The notes below the pieces were generated by a model, which was given only the letters and a program-made list of their open reading frames with translations, searched no databases and was not told the origin of the DNA. Positions 3,236 through 26,993 of a DNA stretch of 64,000 nucleotides are shown piece after piece (position 1 is the stretch's first letter; each line of letters starts with the position of its first letter). The position numbers were made by a program, and so were the translations under genes. Origin of the DNA: Isurus oxyrinchus (lineage: Eukaryota); assembly GCA_026770705.1 (NCBI GenBank), contig JANJGN010000002.1, positions 45,694,001-45,758,000 on the forward strand, written 5' to 3'.

Positions 3236-3984
3236 CAATTTAGTTGCAGTGATAAACCTCTCTGGCTGAATAATCTGCCACTCAGCATGGTTAACACACT
3301 GTAGTGCTTGGTGAAAGTGAGGTTTAATTGTTGCAAGTTCCTCAGAAAGGCAGCTGCCACTAGCAGCCTTTGGGATTGCTGTTGCCTGCTGTCAGCAATT
3401 TTCTAACTGGAGCTAACAGTTCTCCCTTTATGGCAGCATAAGTGTTTTACCTGAAAAAAAAACAGTTTTAGTTTAAGGAAACAACTCATGTCTTTGCCTT
3501 TTCCATATTTTGGCACTCATACATTAGAAATAACCACCAGTGGTTTGACTAGCAAGTATCCAAGGTCATATATGTGTTAGGTGTACAGCTAATATCAAGC
3601 TCAATGTGTTGAAAAGTTTTATTAGTTTTATGACAGGCTGGTTTACTTTGTCCTTTCAAGGTTCCATGAATAATTGCAAGCTCAGATCCTTCCTTACAGT
3701 TGTGCAGTTTAGTCACTGGATAGGTGTATCTTGACATGCTGCAATTTCAGTTTACTGTTGTTTTTTTTGAATGTGTTGACTTTTGCTCAGAGATAGTCCA
3801 TGACCACTGAAAACTATTCAGGGTCACATCCAAGTGGCCATTTTGCATGTGTGTGTTAAGACAGTGAGCGCTGATGGACTATTCAACTGAAGGCTGTGGG
3901 TGTCAGTGAGAGGACAGCAGTTGGATGGGTTATAGAAGCTGAAGTCTGAATCTGTTCAAACATCATGTCTGCACACAGCACCTT

Positions 3985-4247
3985 TGTAGTCATTATGGTT
4001 TTATTTAGTGTGTCATGTACCTTTAAGAATAATAACTGATAAGAAAGATCACATGATCTGTAGCAACCAATAGGAGAGTAACGTGGGCTAACTCAGCAGA
4101 ATGTAGAGAAAGAGTCGGAGCTGAAAGCACATGTGTAGTAGCTGCTGAGTAAACTGTAAATAAACTTAATGAACTTAAAATAAACCCAAGATGTATCTGC
4201 AGATCGACTCTATTATTAATGGCAACAACTTGGCCACCCTCACAACA
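3985..4247 (+). repeat. 5' LTR of Gypsy element 1
   Basis: Starts tgtagtcattatggttttatttag, ends gccaccctcacaaca; aligns with 7703-7795 and 8165-8240. Confidence 0.88.
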
Positions 4248-4250
4248 AAC

Positions 4251-4263
4251 TGATGATGAGGAT
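4251..4263 (+). promoter_or_regulatory. Primer-binding site, decayed, tRNA-Ser(GCT)-like
   Basis: tgatgatgaggat resembles TGGCGACGAGGAT, the complement of the tRNA-Ser(GCT) 3' end, with transition decay; lies just downstream of the LTR. Confidence 0.6.
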
Positions 4264-4351
4264 AAAATGGGATTTAACAGAAGAAATCAAGTTAGAAAGA
4301 AATCAGCACTGTACCTCGCCCAGTGATGGTAAGTAGCAAGCTCCATTAGAA

Positions 4352-5545
4352 TTGAAGAAGTTAACTTCTCTCAAAGTGCCACAATTTGGGAGAATTGATC
4401 CTTTTGAACCAGCCACAGATGATTGGTCTCATTACATGGTACCCCTCACGTTCTTTTTTCAAGTGAACGAGATTATGGAGGAAGAGAAGAGGCGAGCGAT
4501 CCTCTTAAGTACATGTGGGAGCAAAACCTATAGCTTGATTTGAATTTTGATGGCACCCAGTGCCCCAGATTTGAAAAATTTTGATGAATTGGTGGGCCTC
4601 GTGAAGGGTCATTTCTAACCTAAGCCCTCAGTCATGATGCAGAAGCTCAAGTTTAATTCATAAATAGAGCCCCAGGTGAGACAATTACATGCTATGTGGA
4701 AAATTTGTAGCAGCTAAAAGAACATTGTGAGTTCGGTCTGACTCTAAACAACATGCTCAGAGATCATTTAGGGTGTGGTGTGATTGAGGATCCTATTCAG
4801 AAAAGATTATTGTCTGGAGTGAATTTGGATTTCAAGAAGTCACTAGAGATGGCACTGGCCATGGAAAGCACAGTAAGAAATTCAAAAGCAATGCAGGATG
4901 CATAAAATGGCGCCAGCCTTCATATTGGATATCGGAAACCCCAGCCAAAAAGGGGCGAAAATGCAAGACTCTGCCAAGAAACGGGAAACAGCCCCTGCTA
5001 GCTGAAGAATAAAGAAAAATAACTTAGCAGCAAAATCAAAGAATAATTTTAATACAGGTGGAAACAAGCAGTCTTTTAGCAATTGGCAGTTTAAAAAATC
5101 AAATGCTACTATTATCACAGAAATGGACATATAATGAAGCAGTGCAGGGAAAGATTCAAACAGGAATGTAAACAAAAGAAGAATCCCAATGAAATCTACA
5201 ATGTAGAAGAGTCTGGAACAACAAATTTAGGCATTTACTTGCTGTTTAATCTGAAGAACCAATATTTGTCACTGTGAAAGTAAATGGCAAACTTGTTAGA
5301 ATGGAAGTGGACACAGGAGCTTCCACTACAGTAATTGGGAAACATACCTTCAGATATCTGAATAATGGGGAACATCAATTAAGTTTAGAAGAAACAGCTG
5401 TCCAACTAAAAACATTCATGGGGAAAGACATTTCAAGTAAAGGGCATAAGCATTATGGAAACCAATCAGCAAAGTTACCAGTGTGAGGCAGAGGACCAAG
5501 CCTTCTAGCCGAAACTGGCTAAGGAAAATCAACCTTGATTGACCA
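4352..5545 (+). pseudogene. gag plus aspartic protease of Gypsy element 1 (disrupted)
   Basis: GRIDPFEPATDDWSHY...KRRAILLSTCGSKTYSLI gag motif; decayed zinc knuckle CYYYHRNGHIMKQC at ~5104-5145; protease MEVDTGAS; GRGPSLL/RNWL tail; many stops. Confidence 0.88.
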
Positions 5546-6148
5546 ATGAGATTCCAAAAAGCAGCTGAAAGCATTCCTGTTTTGAAAAAGGAATGTGTTA
5601 GGACTCAACAGCTTGAAGAAATGCAGGCTGTCTTAAGCCAAAACCTGGAAGAACAACAGAAGAAACTCAAAGAGACCCTGCTTGATGACAGAGTTCGAGA
5701 TGAGGTGAACAACCTTCGATGGGAAAAAGAGAATCTGTTGAAAGACCTTCAGACAATACAAGATTCTCTCAGTCAAAGTTTGTACCTCTGGAAAAGTATG
5801 AAGAAAAACAAAGAATTCAGCAATTCTCTGAATAAACTGAAGAATGAGTTGGCAGAGAAGACACAACAACGCTCAACTTTCCAGGAGGCAGCAAACAAAT
5901 ACAAAAGAGAGATGGAAGAGCTGAAGACTCAGCTAAATGAATTCAAAGAGGCTTTGGAAGTAAAAGCCATAGAATTTTCCACGAAGCAGACAGATAATGA
6001 CATTTTGGGAGACCCAGCCACTGAGCTCAGACAAGTTGAGCTGGCATCTGAGAGAAGTCTGGCCAATAGTGAAGTCAAAAAGAAAGCCGAGAATAAAGTC
6101 TGTGCTAGAAAGAAGAAGACATGTAGAAAGAAGATACAGAAATACTAA
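5546..6148 (+). CDS. Open 200-codon K/E/Q/L-rich predicted coiled-coil segment occupying the RT/RNase H position of the Gypsy pol
   Basis: Uninterrupted ORF with heptad-like leucines and no RT motifs; in frame with upstream RNWLRKINLD* protease tail, so the ATG may not be a real start. Confidence 0.55.
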   Translation: MRFQKAAESIPVLKKECVRTQQLEEMQAVLSQNLEEQQKKLKETLLDDRVRDEVNNLRWEKENLLKDLQTIQDSLSQSLYLWKSMKKNKEFSNSLNKLKNELAEKTQQRSTFQEAANKYKREMEELKTQLNEFKEALEVKAIEFSTKQTDNDILGDPATELRQVELASERSLANSEVKKKAENKVCARKKKTCRKKIQKY

Positions 6149-7330
6149 TAGGGCCTTAATTCTGGCAGCATATAAGTACACTTTCGTACATAGGCCTGGA
6201 AATCAAATTGCAAACGCCGATGCCCTTAGTCGTTTGCCTTTACAAGAAAATGATGAGCATGTCCCAGTTCCACAGGAACTTGTTTTACTCTTAGATTCCT
6301 CGTCAGTATGCGCTTGACAGAACAGAGACTGGACAAGCCGGGACCCACTCCTATCTCAAGTACGACAGCAAGTGCTGCATGGTTGGTCACAGGAGCCCGA
6401 ATCTGATGAAATGAAACCGTACTTCAACGGAAGACATGAAATAATCACCTAGCATGGCATCTTATTGTGGGGAGCACGAGTGATAGTTCCTCCAAAGGAA
6501 AGGGAACCACTTTTAATTGAACTACACAGTGCCCATCCAGGAATTTTCCGAATGAAGACCATAGCATGCTGCTATCTATGGTGGCCTGGGATGGATGGCA
6601 AAATAGAGAGTTTAGTAAAGCACTGTGTGCAATGCCAGCAACTGCAAAAGTTGCCAACGACAGCTCTGTTACACCCTTGGGAGTGGCCAGGAAGACCATG
6701 TGTGAGGTTACACATTGACTACGTGGATCTTTCCTGTGAACTATGTTTCTGCTTATTGTCGATGCTCATTCAAAATGGTTGGACATATATGAGGTGACAT
6801 CACCAACGTTGGCTGCTACAATTGAGAAACCACGTCAAAGTTTTGCCATTCACAGATTACCAGAAGTAGTTGTTTCCAATAATGGCACAGCCTTTACGAG
6901 TGCTGACTTTCAGTGGTTTATCAGCCTCAACCTTATCACTCATGTAAAAACTGCATTGTACCACCCTTCCTCAAATGGACTGGCCGAAAGGGCGGGTCAA
7001 ATGTTCAAGGCAGGCATGAGAAAGCTAAATGACAATTCCTTAGCAACCAAGCTAGCACGCTTTCTTTTTCATTTCAGGACTACCCCTCACAACAACAGGT
7101 CTCACATCTGTGGAGTTATTATTGAAACGCCATCTTAGGACAAATTTGAGCTTAATAATGCCAAATTTAGGGGGGAAGGTGGAAAGGAGTCAGGGAAGCC
7201 AGAAAGCTAGACACGAGTAGCAAAGTCATGAGAGGAGATTTACCATGGGAGAGATGGTATACTTGAAGAACTTTGGAGAAGGAACAAAGTAGTTACCGGG
7301 TGAAATAAGTCCGGTAACTGGACCTCTATC
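6140..7330 (+). pseudogene. RNase H C-terminal tail plus integrase of Gypsy element 1 (frameshifted)
   Basis: ALILAAYKYTFVHRPG..IANADALSRLP; H2C2 LHSAHPG...CVQCQ; core RLHIDY, VDAHSKW, VSNNGTAF, YHPSSNGLAER. Confidence 0.93.
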
Positions 7331-7702
7331 TTACCACGTAGAGGTGGAAGGCCAGATCATCCAGAAACATGTGAACCATTTAAGGAAGAGAGAGGCAAAT
7401 CACCAAGAGTTGGTTCCACCAGTGATCATGACCAGGTCTGCATTTCAACCCAGGACTGACATGTCTGATGTTCCTGTAAGAGTTGAGGATACAGAACTGC
7501 AAGTGCTCACTGAGACACCAGATGTTCAGACAACTCCGGAAAAGGAGGTTCCTGACAAAGTGTGGAGCTGTGACATTCCACATGTATCAGGAAACCACCT
7601 GAAAGACTGAACTTGTAAATTCCTTACTCAGTGTAAATATTATGTTGTCTTGAAAAATTTGTACTTGTAAATATATATATAGCCGAGTTAAAGGAGGAGG
7701 AA

Positions 7703-8240
7703 TGTAATAATTATTGTTTTATTTAGCGTGTAATGTACTTTTAAGAATAATGCCAGTTAGAGAAGATCGCATGATCTGCAATCACCAATAGGAGGCACAC
7801 GAGATGGGATATGTTAATAAGAAACACATAAAGTTTATTAATTTTTTAAAAAACGGACATGAAACTTCATCCCGCCATTGGATGAAGTTTCATGAATAAT
7901 CAGGAGCCCGCTGGGGCTCCTGGTCTACCCGCCAGCCTTAAGCTTGGACGGGCAGGGTCTTTAACAAGGTTAGTTATCCTGTCAGTGGCTTTTATTGGCC
8001 ATTGACAGGTTGGCAGTGGACAGCTGATTTTGCTGTCTGCCCGCCTTCCTGAAGATTTAAATGGACCGAGATGACATTGGGGGTTCCTCCTGATGTCATC
8101 CCGTGTCATTTTCCCCTCGGCGAGTGAGCCCCGCCCCCAAATTGCTGAGGGGAAAATCCTGGCCTTAATGTTTCCACCCAAGAAGTATCTGCAGTTCAAC
8201 TATATTATCAATAGTAGCAACTCAGCCACCCTCACAATCA
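7703..8240 (+). repeat. 3' LTR of Gypsy element 1, interrupted by a MITE fragment
   Basis: 7703-7795 and 8165-8240 match the two ends of the 5' LTR. Confidence 0.85.
7795..8164. mobile_element. Partial Harbinger-type MITE
   Basis: Ends in aaaatcctggcc TIR; shares catgaaacttcatcc and ccttaag motifs with the MITE at 26390-26993. Confidence 0.75.
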
Positions 8241-8439
8241 CCTTCTGGCTGAGTTAAAGTAGGTAGTGGCAGAAGTGGAAATTTGCCTGAGTTTTATTTC
8301 TTTCCCTTCCCCATTTAAGGATGTTAAGAGTGACTGCTGCTACACTCAGCCCGGCTAAGACAAGCAAACCTGCTCGAACCTTGGTCTATATGGCTCAATA
8401 CACGGTGGTCGTTTCAGTTACCCAGTAAGACAAAAGGAA

Positions 8440-8670
8440 CAAAACAGAAAATGCTGGGAAGACTCAGCAGTTCTAACAGCATCTGTGGAAAGAAAAACAG
8501 AGCTAACGTTTCGAGTCCATATGGCTCTTTTTCAGTATTCTGAAGAAGAGTCATATGGACTTGAAACTTTAATTCTGTTTTTTTCTCCACAGATGCTGTT
8601 AGACCTGCTGAGTTTTTCCAGCATTTTCTATTTATGTTTCAGATTTCCAGCATCCGCAGTATTTTGCTTT
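8440..8670. mobile_element. Fold-back element built from two inverted Penelope-like termini
   Basis: Arms aaaacagaaaatgctgg...ttcag and ctgaa...ccagcattttc are reverse complements around tatt (8536-8539); homologous to the terminus at 40860-40980. Confidence 0.8.
8533..8577 (+). ncRNA. Minimal type I hammerhead ribozyme relic
   Basis: CUGAAGA, stem II gagtc/gactt, GAAAC, helix I cagtatt/aattctg; an antisense copy at 8508-8535 has CUGAAAA...GAAACGUU; both carry substitutions. Confidence 0.6.
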
Positions 8671-20049: not shown

Positions 20050-23000
20050 GTCAGAATGCCCACAAAATCCCAATTTGAATTGGGATGCAGCTAACCTATT
20101 ATCTGAATTCAAAATGTTTGAACAGCGTACAGTTTCTTGATTCAGGTGTGTCTGAACTATGCAGGCAAGCTGTAAATATTCACTTAGCACAAGGGAATGA
20201 AGGTCTACACAGGCTATACATATCAGGATTAACAGAAGAAGAGCTTAAGGATCCTCAAAAGATATGGGCTACATTGGAAGACCGATTCAGAATCAAGTTA
20301 AAAAACTGTATTCATCAGCTAGAGTTTCATGTCATTTCGACAACAGCCTACAGGAGCCATAGACCACTTTGTCAGCAAGTGCAGATAAAAGAGTAGGCAC
20401 TGTGATTTTTCAAGTGCAGAGCTAGCAGACAGAATTGTTGAGTTGGTGATCGCATCCATTTCCTTGGAAGAATTCCATTAAGATATGCTAGACAAGCCCA
20501 AAAAGTATAGCGTGAGGAGCTACTCCTGGATGGAGCTAAGTACAAAATGACTCTTGCAGGTTGACAAAGCTTGCATGTCCTAAGTACAACCTTCATTGCT
20601 GACGCACTCACCAGAACACCCAAACCTAGCAAGATATGTAGAAGGTGTGGTCTTTTGCATGCCCAGCTTTTCATCAATTCCATAAGGCATTTGGCAGAAA
20701 GGGCCATTGGCAGCGACAGTGCTTGAGCAAAGGCTGGTGTAGCTATATAGAGCAGTGCACTGATCCAAACAGACCATACACGATAGATACCTTCAAGCAA
20801 TAAGACCATCTGGTGTCCCGTCAGAAACATATACATGAGGCAATTGACAGACCTGAAAATGTCGATGATGTGTGTGACGAGACGAAGAGCAGTGAGCACA
20901 TGTTTCACACCGGTAATCTTGTGGAAAGTATACATGCCGTCACGCCATCTGAAATGTTTGCCAAGATTAGAATTATCTGTCCTAAAAGAGTTGGTAATTA
21001 TTCATCATTGACCTAGATTGACACAGGGCAAGTGCCAACATACTACCTCTATGAATTCTAAAAGAGACATGTCCACAGATATAGAGGGCCATGGCAAAAC
21101 CTACTGCTGTGAAATTTTCCGTATGCAATGGTTCACTAATTCCACATGAAGGATCCATTATCCTGCAGTACAAGTACAATCAATTCTCTTGGGTGTCACA
21201 GAGGCTCTATATTGTGGAAACTGAAGGCCCAGCGATTATTTAAAAATAAGGGATTGCCCATTTAAGACAGAGATGAGGAGAATTTTTTTTTGAGGATAGT
21301 GAGTCTTTAGAACTTCCTTCCTCAAAAGGTGGCCAAAGCAGAGTCTTTGAATACTTTTAAGGCAGAGCTAGATTCTTGATAAGGAAGGGGATGAAAGGTT
21401 ATCAAGGGGATAGATAGGAATGTAAAGTTGAGGTTACAGTCAGATCAGCCATGATCTTATTGAATGGTGGAACAGGCTCAAAGGGCCAGGTGGCCTACTG
21501 CTCCTAATTTGTATGTTTGTATGTATGTTCATATGTTCGATTGCAGGTCTACTGGCATACTGTGACCTCACACTAGATACAATCCATGGAATCAGTCAGA
21601 CAGCACAAGGCAGATCAATCTCAGAAAATGCTCCCATCATCTCAGTTCATGGCCTAACATCAAAATATCCAGAATGTTTCAACAAAATTGGCAGTTTCAA
21701 GAGAGCTACAACATTACACTTGCAGGAAAATGCAAGTCTGCCAATTGATCCACCATGTAAGTGCAGCATCCACATACAAGACAACTTGAAGGTTGAACTA
21801 GACAAAATGGAAAAAGACAGAAACATTTGAAGGGTGTAAGAGCACACAGATTGGTGCAGCTCAATCACGTGTCATAAAGAAGGATGGATCATTGAGAGTA
21901 TGCCTTGATCCATGACTTAAATGGAGCTTTAAAACATTGTCCTTACAAAATACCCATATTAGAAGAATTAAATCTGAGATTTGAAGGTTCAAAATTCTCT
22001 CAAAACTTTATACCAAACATGGTTATTGGTCAATACATCTCACGAAGAAGTCACAAGGGTTTACTACATTTTGTACCCCATTTGGATGATACTGTTTTCA
22101 ATGACTTCCTTTTGGGCTATCTGTTAGCCAGGATCTCTTTCAAGCTCACTTGGCCTACAATACATGAACTATGCTAGGATGCACCTGTATTGCAGATGGT
22201 ATTGCTGTTGTGGGAAGAACAAAGCAAGAACATGACCATAATCTGCACTTATTGATGCAAGTGACACATAATGAAGGATTGGTGTTCAATAGTCTGAAAT
22301 GTGACATCAATGTGCAGCAGATCAATTTCTTCAGCTCTGTTTATTCTAGCGCTGGTTTATGTCCTGAACCAAGTAAAATAGAGGATATTAAAGCCAATAT
22401 GACTAGGTTTTTAATTTCTTGTCTCTATACATTCCCAATTTCACTCAAAAACCTTCATCACTAAGGGAATTGTTGAGAAAAGATTTGCCTCTCCTGTGGC
22501 AGAAGACCACCTGTACCTTTTTGAAGCACTGAAACAGTCATTATCAAAAGCATCAATTTTGCAATTTTATGATCCTAGGGAGTCAGTTACCCTGGAGATA
22601 GATGCCTCACAGAAATGTTTGGGAGCATGCATAATCCAGAAAGTAAACTGATTGCGTTTGTTTCAAAACCTCTGTCCGTAACAAATCAAACTCCTTCAAC
22701 ATTGAGTGGGAAACATTGGTTTTAGCATTTGGAATCATGCATTTTCATACCTATCTCTCTGGCCAAAGATTTGTGGTGGAGACCTACCAAAAGCCACTGA
22801 AGATGATTTGACAAAAAACATTGACAAGTGCACTGCCAAGATTGCAACATCTCTTGATAAAGATTCAAGGTTATGACTGTGACATTACGTACAAGCCTGG
22901 TCACCTGATTGTCACATTAGATAGTCTTGGCAGATTGCTTAACCCAATGAAAATGGAAGGTGTATCCTTGGATCTGCAAGTTGATTTAATTGACCTCGGA

Positions 23001-24110
23001 CTTGAAACATCTCCAAATTGACCTGGTGCATTTTGTGCAATGCAAATGCCAGCAGGTATGACAAGAAATGGCAAAAAGTTCCACACTACAGATACTATGG
23101 AAAACTGTCATTGAAGGATGGCCTGATTCAAGTCAACATGTCCACCAACACATGAGAGCATCTTAGCCTTATCGGCATGAGCCAGGAATCTCCTGGGAGC
23201 CATTTTTAAAGGTAGGCAAGTCGTCATACCCGAAGCTTTGCAACCTGATATTCTCCAGCAACTTCATCACTTAAACATGGGCATAGATCAGATTCGCAAG
23301 AGAGATTGTCTATTGGCTGGGTATGAACTATGTCATTGAAGTTGTCGTCAAGAAGTGTGAGGCATGTCAAGAGCATATACCAAGTCAGCACAAAGTACCA
23401 TTGATTCCATATGAAGCTCCTACCTATCCTTGGTCCAAAATCACATCCGACCACTCATGTCCAAAGCACTGACTTCATCATCATTGTCAACTACTTTACC
23501 AAGTACCCCATTATTCGACAATTGCACAATACATCAGTCACAACTGTCACACACACTCTTGTGCAATTATCAGTTTATTTGGTGTGCCTCAAGAGATCAT
23601 TATAGATAATGGTCCACAATGTATTGGTAAGCCATTTGAAGACGTGTGAGAAGTGGAATATTGATCACATTACTTCTTCTCTTCTACCTAGATCTAATGG
23701 CCCAGCTGAATGAATGATTTGCACAACGAAATCCATAATTCTCAAATGTAGACAAATCAAACAAGATCTACACTTTGCAATGTTACATCTGAGAGCAAGA
23801 CGTTTAAGTCCATCACTGGCAGAGCTCATGTTTGGCAAACCAGCATGTACCATTTACCTACTTTTAACCATTCCATTCTCTCAGAAACTAGACAGCAACT
23901 TTTAAAACTGCAAGAAACGATGACTAATGTGCATGATGAAAATGAAGGCACAGTATTGTCAAGTTTACAGTTGGGACAAGTTCATATCCAGGATCACACA
24001 GATGATACATGGCAACCAGCTGAGGTGACAAGTATTTGTTCAGAACCAAAATTCTATGAAGTTTCTGCACACAAAGGCACAATAGGAGGTGTAACTGAGG
24101 ACAAATAAGA
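20050..24110 (+). pseudogene. gag-pol of Gypsy element 2 (many stops and frameshifts)
   Basis: gag GNEGLHRLYISGLTEEELKDPQKIWATLEDRF; knuckle KGHWQRQC; protease IDTGASANILP; RT CIADGIAVVG..EHDHNL; RH DASQKCLGA and PRLQHLLIKIQGYD; IN DNGPQ and SNGPAE. Confidence 0.9.
21238..21537 (+). mobile_element. CR1 3' fragment inserted in pol of Gypsy element 2
   Basis: CR1 tail with (tatgtt)n; direct repeat CGATT at 21233-21237 and 21538-21542. Confidence 0.85.
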
Positions 24111-26389: not shown

Positions 26390-26993
26390 GGCCAGAATTT
26401 TCCCGTCGGCGATTTGAGGGCGGGGCTCGCTTGCTGACAGGAAAATGATGTGGGATGACGTCAGGAGGATGGGCCATTGACAGGATAATTAAGGTAAGTA
26501 TAGGCCCTGCCCATCCAAACTTAAGGCTGGCGGGCAGGCCAGGAACCCCAGCGGGAAGGAGAAAAAACATGAAACCTCATCCACCGGCGGGATAAGGTTT
26601 CATGTCTGTTTAAAAAATCTTTAATAAAGTTTATGTAATATTTATTAGCATGTCCCATGTTGTGTGACATTGTCACATGAGGGGGGGTCATATTAATAAT
26701 TTTTTTATTTTTCTATTTTTTAAGTTTACAAACCTTTCAGCCCTCTCCCTGAGACAGCGCTTAGTCTCAGGGAGCAGTGTGTGCGCGAAAGAGCGCACTT
26801 TGACAGTTGGGGAATCCCTCCCCCTCTGCACCGGATGCGTAGAGCGCTTCCCACTGGGCAGCCCGCTGGGCGGGCCTTAATTGGCCTGCTCACTTAAAAT
26901 GGCGGCAGGGCCCGTTTCGGCAGCGGAGTTCAGCTGCCCGCCCGCCGCCGAGCCAGTGGGGCCCGCCCGCCCATTGAGGGCTAAATTCTGCCC
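26390..26993. mobile_element. Harbinger-type MITE, complete and CpG-rich
   Basis: TIRs ggccagaattt / aaattctgccc; exact 3 bp TSD ACT. Confidence 0.9.

What the first reader, a model, noticed from the sequence alone, without database searches (positions are those of the whole stretch)
5510..6180. Gypsy element whose RT/RNase H is replaced by an open coiled-coil segment (Gag-PR-coiled coil-IN)
Seen: between the protease tail (RNWLRKINLD*) and the last RNase H motif (ALILAAY...NADALSR) there are about 600 nt with no RT motif. They form a stop-free 200-codon K/E/Q/L-rich frame, in frame with the protease tail, while the flanking gag and integrase are broken by stops or frameshifts. LTRs, PBS, PPT and a CCTT TSD are present. 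Known: Gypsy pol order is PR-RT-RH-IN, and Gypsy element 2 here has the normal RT-RH. Inference: a non-autonomous lineage that swapped RT for a captured host or foreign coiled coil and borrows RT in trans; the segment could act as an oligomerisation or tethering module, or be neutral cargo.
Basis: partly seen in the sequence, partly recalled or inferred. Interest (0 to 1): 0.78.

Follow-up and report, generated by a model that had tools for sequence, protein, structure and literature searches.

The report
Shark retrotransposon with captured UACA coil
This is a dead copy of a widespread jumping-gene lineage that swapped its copying enzyme for a piece of the host gene UACA, kept that piece's protein code under selection for a long time, and likely spread by borrowing the enzyme from intact relatives.

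Summary
The 606-nt insert has 39 further full-length matches among 40 scored (4,118 candidates), with distinct 5-bp target duplications. It comes from one large exon of host UACA, through a separate LTR family without detected pol (family X) with the same 450-nt deletion. RT-bearing members of the same Gypsy family share gag, integrase, LTR sequence and LTR age, and recombinants between the two types exist, so RT was likely borrowed in trans. On the lineage leading here the coil evolved under frame-specific purifying selection (dN/dS 0.27; 1.28 and 0.93 in the other frames). The family frame is Gag-PR-coil-stop, not Gag-PR-coil-IN; integrase lies in a +1 frame that overlaps the last 70 codons and lost all five ancestral stops there (simulated P ≤0.01). 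And this copy's open frame is partly luck: two private deletions cancel out. All 31 copies tested are dead. Host-gene capture and semi-autonomous LTR elements are known; a selected host cassette moving between LTR families is a new variant. The scan noted similar captures (CIN85, Rabaptin-5) in ray genomes, unchecked here. The coil's function is untested.

The parts
3980..3984 (.). 5' target-site duplication ACCTT
   Evidence: sequence; family TSDs are 5 bp
3985..4247 (+). 5' LTR (263 bp), shared by coil-type and RT-type members
4251..4263 (+). primer-binding site, degenerate in this copy
   Evidence: sequence; same position in 17 copies; the tRNA was not identified by any search
4337..6148 (+). 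ORF1 of the family: Gag-protease-coiled coil, ending at the stop 6146-6148; broken here by 7 in-frame stops and several indels
   Evidence: shared-stop scan of 31 copies; lesions
5250..5474 (+). aspartic protease, N-terminal part (DTG at 5310), not distinguishable from that of the RT-bearing type
   Evidence: Pfam; net divergence about 0; DTG position
5475..5582 (+). protease tail and PR-RT linker of an older relative: start of the lineage-specific cassette
   Evidence: net divergence from the RT type jumps to 0.14-0.23 and above; pS 0.78 between types against 0.15 within; homologous residues
5583..6030 (+). UACA-derived coiled coil: two parts of the large host exon joined by an in-frame 450-nt deletion at an 8-nt microhomology near 5920-5927
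   Evidence: 70% and 67% DNA identity to host exon L051 3030-3358 and 3801-3881; stingray UACA E 5e-18; all-helix model, pLDDT 83
6031..6145 (+). tail inherited from family X, not found in the UACA locus; Lys/Arg-rich in both frames in this lineage
   Evidence: K+R share of the last 25 codons 0.46/0.48 against 0.33/0.27 in X; no donor found
6146..6151 (+). tandem stop ending ORF1 at the junction with the RNase H tail
   Evidence: stop in 100% and 80% of aligned copies
5937..7615 (+). ORF2 of the family (+1 frame): 70-codon leader overlapping the coil, RNase H tail, integrase; starts at an ATG present in 97% of 40 copies; broken here by 8 in-frame stops
6453..7138 (+). integrase zinc finger and core
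   Evidence: Pfam Integrase_H2C2 above cut-off; rve below cut-off, E 3e-4
7690..7702 (+). polypurine tract
   Evidence: sequence; same position in other copies
7703..8239 (+). 3' LTR, interrupted and partly replaced by an unrelated repeat at about 7796-8163
8240..8244 (.). 3' target-site duplication ACCTT
   Evidence: sequence

Best explanation
This is a dead copy of a Gypsy lineage in which RT and most of RNase H were replaced, in frame with the protease, by a UACA-derived coiled coil; the lineage likely made its own Gag-protease-coil protein, probably made integrase from an overlapping +1 frame, and likely borrowed RT from RT-bearing members of the same family. Shown: donor, route (host exon, then LTR family X, then the deleted X form, then this family), ORF layout, frame-specific purifying selection, and mosaics between coil-type and RT-type elements. 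Inferred: the two RNAs were packaged together (about 0.9), and template switching at microhomologies repeatedly moved the protease-tail-plus-coil cassette onto current helper backbones. Inferred, less sure: integrase was expressed by a +1 frameshift or internal start near 5937 (about 0.65). Most likely role of the coil (about 0.5): a multimerising rod on the end of Gag-PR that helps it co-assemble with the helper's single Gag-Pol polyprotein, so the element supplies extra Gag and protease and wins packaging of its own RNA.
For: 39 other full-length matches at 88-90% among 40 scored; 19 of 19 fetched are colinear from gag to integrase. 11 of 11 copies with both LTRs measurable have distinct 5-bp TSDs. 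Donor. The coil-type clade (support 100, stem 0.24) nests inside the deletion-bearing X copies. 13 of 29 integrase-selected loci carry RT-RH in place of the coil, in a single gag-pol frame. Gag and integrase trees intermix the types; LTR-pair identity is 85.7% against 85.0%. 5 of 5 mixed loci are coil/RT mosaics, with at least three junction sites, one an in-frame switch at a 9-nt microhomology. Branch dN 0.18, dS 0.66, dN/dS 0.27 (95% 0.14-0.49). Frame control 0.27 / 1.28 / 0.93, third positions twice as diverged. New Pro/Gly are avoided (P 0.002) and charged residues kept. +1 stops: 0 of 5 kept in the overlap against 7 of 9 upstream and 5 of 7 in the other frame.
Against: Family X carries the same coil with no detected protease or pol, so protease dimerisation cannot be the original reason for selection. 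In the overlap there is no codon periodicity and dN/dS is similar in all three frames (0.36, 0.43, 0.54). The +1 result was noticed after the fact, and its simulation started from only 2 of 14 X copies. No frameshift or splice signal was identified. With very strong transition bias (kappa 8-16) a neutral dN/dS of 0.30 or less has P 0.04-0.07, though the frame control argues against this. The shared-variant test is partly confounded: wrong frames also fall. Retention of hydrophobic residues was not clearly above neutral (P 0.07). All 31 copies have at least 3 stops in ORF1.
Confidence: 0.65

Rival explanations
1. Same history, but the coil was kept because it binds host UACA or UACA's partners and so tethers or routes the particle inside the cell, not because it joins Gag molecules together.
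For: The coil was already carried by family X, where no protease or pol was detected, and X copies show fewer amino-acid changes than the neutral singleton baseline (200/80 against 213/55, P 0.03). Surface charge and helix character are kept. The tail became basic, which could be a nuclear or nucleic-acid signal (inference).
Against: The piece is 30% diverged from the host in DNA and has lost 150 internal codons, which would disturb a specific host interface. The scan's unchecked notes describe different host coils (CIN85, Rabaptin-5) captured in rays, which suggests that any coil will do.
Confidence: 0.2
2. Gag-PR-coil is real, but integrase is a silent passenger refreshed by recombination with helpers; the open +1 overlap is chance, and both RT and integrase are borrowed.
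For: Integrase is intermixed with the helper's, so its intactness says nothing about use. ATGs are common in this frame (6 present in 35% or more of coil-type copies). There is no frame-specific dN/dS in the overlap.
Against: All 5 ancestral +1 stops were lost and none gained over 70 codons, while the other frame holds 11 shared stops there; simulated P 0.000-0.010.
Confidence: 0.3
3. The coil is neutral filler: only RNA length or an open frame mattered.
For: Retrocopies inside LTR elements are often in frame and can be copied again without a function (PMC5131818, abstract and passages). In-frame deletions are expected from microhomology alone (62-91%).
Against: dN/dS 0.27 is specific to frame 0. 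Simulations that forbid only stops give 0.65-0.80 at kappa 2-4, with P(0.30 or less) below 0.01. Helix breakers are avoided.
Confidence: 0.07
4. The segment is a one-off replacement after integration, or an unrelated repeat with its own ends.
For: None found.
Against: The same two junctions occur in 19 of 19 aligned copies apart from small private deletions, with distinct TSDs.
Confidence: 0.01

Closest known systems
LTR-mediated retrocopies of animals (Tan et al. 2016, PMC5131818; abstract, passages and section 6 read)
   Same: Host sequence replaces part of the internal ORFs of an LTR element, with microhomology at the joints, often in frame, and can be copied again as a non-autonomous element.
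   Different: Those are young events with one or a few copies; the word 'purifying' does not occur in the main text. Here the piece spread to about as many candidate sites as the helper's RT, changed LTR family, and shows long purifying selection. Capture from mRNA cannot be shown because only one exon is involved.
Maize Bs1 (seen only through passages of the reviews PMC13317346 and PMC7264820; the primary papers were not held)
   Same: An LTR element with transduced host gene segments that form a new chimeric ORF.
   Different: Plant element with three donor genes, discussed as a new host gene. Here the element keeps protease and integrase, has an identified same-family helper, and all copies examined have decayed.
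Semi-autonomous wheat elements RLG_Sabrina_SA/WHAM, BARE2 (PMC9744471, passages and section 17) and RLG_Quinta (PMC11302176, abstract)
   Same: The partner supplies RT while the derivative keeps Gag or Gag-protease; host switching by template switching is proposed; some Sabrina variants carry unrelated short ORFs.
   Different: No traced host donor in what was read. Here the donor exon is identified, the extra piece is fused to the protease, and integrase is kept in an overlapping frame.
Replication-defective oncogene-transducing retroviruses (recalled, no call)
   Same: A gag-host fusion replaces pol and needs a helper.
   Different: Those are short-lived somatic isolates selected for cell growth. 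This is a germ-line lineage without env, selected over long evolutionary time.
Additional ORFs in bdelloid and plant LTR retrotransposons (PMC5408684, PMC7264820; passages read)
   Same: Extra coding sequence, sometimes with coiled coils, present in most copies of a family.
   Different: Those ORFs are added beside an intact pol and mostly have no known host source. Here the piece replaces RT and the source is a host gene.

Membership tests
Ty3/Gypsy LTR retrotransposon | LTRs with TG...CA ends, PBS, PPT, TSD | tested here: met
Ty3/Gypsy LTR retrotransposon | pol order PR-RT-RH-IN | tested here: met
   in the RT-bearing members; this copy keeps PR, the RH tail and IN in that order
Ty3/Gypsy LTR retrotransposon | placement of the RT in a named Gypsy clade | not tested
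   no reference RT set was used
Autonomous element | encodes RT/RNase H | tested here: not met
   absent in the window; replaced by the coil in the coil-type loci
Semi-autonomous LTR element | many independent insertions without own RT | tested here: met
Semi-autonomous LTR element | partner sharing LTR, PBS, PPT and age | tested here: met
Semi-autonomous LTR element | keeps ORFs for some own proteins | tested here: met
   ORF1 and ORF2 open across 31 copies apart from three partly shared stops (44-57%), read as CpG decay
Semi-autonomous LTR element | trans-complementation shown by experiment | not testable with these tools
   all copies examined are dead; mosaics are indirect evidence
LTR-mediated retrocopy | host sequence replaces internal ORF sequence, in sense | tested here: met
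LTR-mediated retrocopy | intron loss (mRNA template) | tested here: inconclusive
   all matches in 20 X loci fall in one exon; no other UACA exon matched in 140 kb
LTR-mediated retrocopy | microhomology at the joints | tested here: inconclusive
   clear at the internal deletion and at mosaic junctions; the founding junctions are too diverged to call
Domesticated TE gene (host function) | a single intact conserved locus | tested here: not met
   0 of 31 copies intact; singleton changes look neutral; only the best-scoring copies were examined

The most novel reading that the evidence does not exclude
Domestication in reverse: Gypsy parasites of cartilaginous fishes repeatedly take host coiled coils as working parts. 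This UACA coil became a selected, portable cassette that hopped between LTR families and across generations of helper elements, evolved a new dual-coding overlap to keep integrase, and let an element without RT match its helper in copy number by steering particle assembly or tethering to host proteins.
Probability: 0.3. Interest if true: 0.85.

Novelty: new variant of a known kind. Interest (0 to 1): 0.64.

Why it matters
Captured host fragments in LTR elements are usually treated as passengers, or as raw material for new host genes. Here the fragment was kept under amino-acid selection on the element's own lineage, over a synonymous distance of 0.5-0.65, with donor exon, intermediate family, helper and recombinants all in one genome. 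That makes it a dated, traceable case of a retroelement putting a host protein piece to its own use in a vertebrate germ line, and it makes testable what an RT-less element gains from a coiled coil and how an overlapping reading frame arises. It also explains spurious 'uncharacterized' coiled-coil gene models in shark annotation (two in basking shark).

Tried and rejected
Word-based protein search with the window frame found nothing. Atlas, Pfam and PDB sequence search gave only generic coiled-coil or no hits. The donor came from the HMMER search with the naturally open frame of another copy. UACA was first a recalled guess from a motif and was then tested.

In-frame internal deletions as evidence of selection: rejected, because 62-91% of microhomology pairs in this exon are in frame anyway. 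Singleton versus shared variants (P 0.0002 raw): downgraded, because wrong frames show part of the same drop; without CpG sites the counts are small (10/12 in frame against 8/14 and 4/18).

The idea that the tail comes from later UACA exons: not supported; no other donor found (weak search). A gag identity for the piece upstream of the coil in family X rests on a recalled motif only; Pfam gave no hit and it did not match this family's gag. No autonomous partner for X was found: 0 of 29 LTR loci had a pol hit within 1.5 kb, using queries from another family.

Expression: contigs of four runs guessed to be RNA cover all 30 bins, mostly under 95% alike; none of the 15 joints shown (141 not shown) was a GT-AG joint into the overlap. 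This shows neither transcription nor its absence. A second laying was not obtained. Rfam: nothing above a family threshold. The tool for contigs encoding a protein was closed, so the basking-shark loci were not seen as DNA. Element 2 of the window as helper: rejected.

Full report
OBSERVATION. The element spans 3985-8239 between two ACCTT copies. Its LTRs match at 80-84% in two blocks; the 3' LTR is interrupted by another repeat. Pfam finds the protease at 5250-5483 and the integrase zinc finger at 6453-6794. Between them lies a 201-codon open frame, 5543-6145, in the frame of the protease tail, with no RT motif. The description is correct.

IT IS A FAMILY. The 606-nt segment gave 4,118 first-look candidates in the 4.98-Gb genome; all 40 scored places match, the 39 others at 88-90% over nearly the full length. 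All 19 fetched loci are colinear with the window element from gag through the segment to integrase, some with later breaks, with the same two junctions. Of 39 copies fetched with flanks, 11 had both LTRs measurable; all 11 have a 5-bp TSD with at most one mismatch (6 exact), all different, and LTR pairs are 82.7-89.4% identical. Queries of equal length gave 4,208 candidates for RT and 6,151 for gag. These are not copy numbers, but they suggest that coil-type and RT-type elements are similarly abundant.

DONOR. A copy with a naturally open frame (L018) hit five proteins at E ≤0.001 among 1.84 billion: stingray UACA (E 5e-18; 44% over 126 residues), two basking-shark models, one unnamed fragment, and a weak unrelated repeat protein. 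The host gene's large exon is L051 (911 open codons, 63% to stingray UACA). The insert matches two parts of it at 70% and 67%, 450 nt apart, joined at an 8-nt microhomology. No other UACA exon matched in 140 kb of the locus, so intron loss cannot be tested. The model is all helix (pLDDT 83, pTM 0.29). That the host is a cartilaginous fish is inferred from these matches.

ROUTE. The UACA search also found family X: 20 fetched loci with longer exon pieces at 74-86% to the host, many of them bounded by their own direct repeats, unrelated to this element's LTR. 14 of the 20 carry the same 450-nt deletion and the same non-UACA tail as the window insert. In a tree of the shared exon part (host, all 20 X, 15 of 40 coil-type, 2 mosaics) the coil-type clade has support 100 and a stem of 0.24 and nests inside the deletion-bearing X copies (support 100 for the inner group, 77 for all 14). 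So the piece went from host exon to X and only then into this Gypsy family. The basking-shark proteins split the same way: P0001 is nearer the coil type (68% against 53%), P0002 nearer X (62% against 51%).

HELPER. Of 29 other loci chosen by integrase similarity, 13 carry RT-RNase H where the window has the coil, 8 carry the whole coil, 2 its 3' part, 5 are mixed, and 1 shows RNase H only (Pfam RVT_1 and RT_RNaseH). In 12 of the 14 RT-side copies aligned, gag-pol is one frame of about 1,350 codons with two partly shared stops (50-58%), read as CpG decay. Gag and integrase trees are star-like with the types intermixed, and distances between types equal those within (52 of 60 rows each). LTR-pair identity is 85.7% (11 coil-type) and 85.0% (5 RT-type). 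Net divergence between the types is about zero through gag and the first part of the protease, then jumps near 5470; in the protease tail pS is 0.78 between types against 0.15 within. The lineage-specific unit is therefore a cassette, protease tail plus coil, much older than the backbone that carries it. All 5 mixed loci are mosaics with at least three switch points; one switches from RT-type protease into the middle of the coil, in frame, at a 9-nt microhomology. Template switching between co-packaged RNAs is the standard explanation (established knowledge; inference here). The window's second Gypsy element is too distant to be the helper.

READING FRAMES. Across 31 of 40 copies (those with one colinear hit of 2,600 nt or more), one frame runs from gag through protease and coil, with only two partly shared stops (44% and 57%, read as CpG decay), to a stop in 100% of aligned copies at 6146 and a second in 80% at 6149. 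The RNase H tail and integrase are in the +1 frame, open from 5937 to about 7615 apart from one 47% site. In the 70 overlapping codons the X copies carry five +1 stops (four also in the host); none is kept and none gained. Upstream, 7 of 9 are kept, and in the other frame of the overlap 5 of 7 are kept and 6 gained (Fisher P 0.010 and 0.027). Simulated divergence from 2 usable X copies (of 14) leaves about five +1 stops, and zero in 0-1% of runs. An ATG follows the last kept stop in 97% of 40 copies, but such ATGs are common in this frame. Against: the overlap shows no codon periodicity and no frame-specific dN/dS, and no shift or splice signal was found. I put integrase expression at about 0.65.

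SELECTION ON THE COIL. Over 149 codons (host, 14 X, 40 coil-type copies), the branch to the coil type has dN 0.18 and dS 0.66, dN/dS 0.27 (bootstrap 0.14-0.49); neutral simulation gives 0.93 and no stop in 0.7% of runs. Upstream of the overlap the ratio is 0.27 in the coding frame and 1.28 and 0.93 in the others, and third positions diverge twice as fast. Simulations that forbid only stops reach 0.30 in under 1% of runs at kappa 2-4 and in 4-7% at kappa 8-16; observed ts/tv is 1.5. New Pro/Gly are rare (0.021 against 0.080 per codon, P 0.002) and charged residues are kept (0.91 against 0.70); retention of hydrophobic residues is not clearly above neutral (P 0.07). Changes found in single copies look neutral (213 non-synonymous, 55 synonymous, 13 stops), and every one of 31 copies has 3-12 stops in ORF1. 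Selection acted on the replicating lineage, not on inserted copies. This copy has 7 stops in ORF1 columns, 8 in ORF2, and two cancelling deletions inside the coil.

MECHANISM. Shown: architecture, donor, route, selection, mosaics. Inferred: a semi-autonomous element that gave Gag, protease and probably integrase to mixed particles and took RT from helpers. Because the helper makes one long polyprotein, extra Gag-PR from a partner would be useful; this logic is proposed for wheat Sabrina/WHAM (PMC9744471, section 17). The coil most likely multimerised Gag-PR or stabilised co-assembly (about 0.5); tethering to host proteins is the main rival (about 0.2 overall), helped by the fact that X carried the coil with no protease detected. 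No call tests binding.

WHAT IS KNOWN. Host sequence replacing internal ORFs of LTR elements is described across animals (PMC5131818; abstract, passages, section 6), Bs1 is the plant precedent (review passages only), and semi-autonomous partners are known in wheat. A search for 'UACA' with 'retrotransposon' listed 10 papers, none on capture by title or abstract start; searches (listings only, except the papers named) showed no shark case. Repbase and most subscription journals were not searchable and supplements were not read, so the family may already be catalogued.

VERDICT. Real, family-wide and selected; a new variant of a known kind. Interest 0.64: the selection, the jump between LTR families and the probable new overlapping frame would surprise a specialist, but all copies examined are fossils and the coil's role is untested.

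Noticed in passing
L122-L141, L156-L185 (e.g. L141 2283-5730): Family X: LTR elements of about 3-5 kb with a different LTR (2,608 first-look candidates), no pol found, carrying up to 1.5 kb of the UACA exon in nested deletion and rearrangement variants, 74-86% identical to the host; 14 of 29 LTR-selected loci have UACA within 1.5 kb.
   Followed up: partly
L116-L119 (coil-to-RT junction): Four mosaics share nearly the same switch from the coil into the RT thumb/RNase H, so this may be a third propagating sub-lineage; two show an A AAA AAG run at the joint, a possible -1 slip site (motif recalled).
   Followed up: partly
window 7796-8163: An unrelated high-copy repeat sits in the 3' LTR; the same repeat lies in the 3' LTRs of L039 and L043 in the opposite orientation, and a relative at window 26390-26666.
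   Followed up: no
window about 21870-23460, + strand: A distant, degenerate Gypsy element with RT-RH-IN order (27-39% protein identity to this family).
   Followed up: partly
P0001, P0002 (basking shark gene models LOC144682709, LOC144678955): Annotated 'uncharacterized proteins' that match the coil-type element (68% on average) and family X (62%): probably element-derived gene calls, showing both lineages in another shark.
   Followed up: partly
window 8442-8633: Inverted repeat with 94-nt arms, 87% complementary, just downstream of the element.
   Followed up: no
L137 1-2184: A coil-type copy lies directly upstream of an X element.
   Followed up: no
window 53556 (- strand) and 58432 (+ strand): Stop-free frames of 219 and 234 codons that look like a Harbinger-type transposase piece and a LINE RT piece (recalled motifs, not tested).
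   Followed up: no
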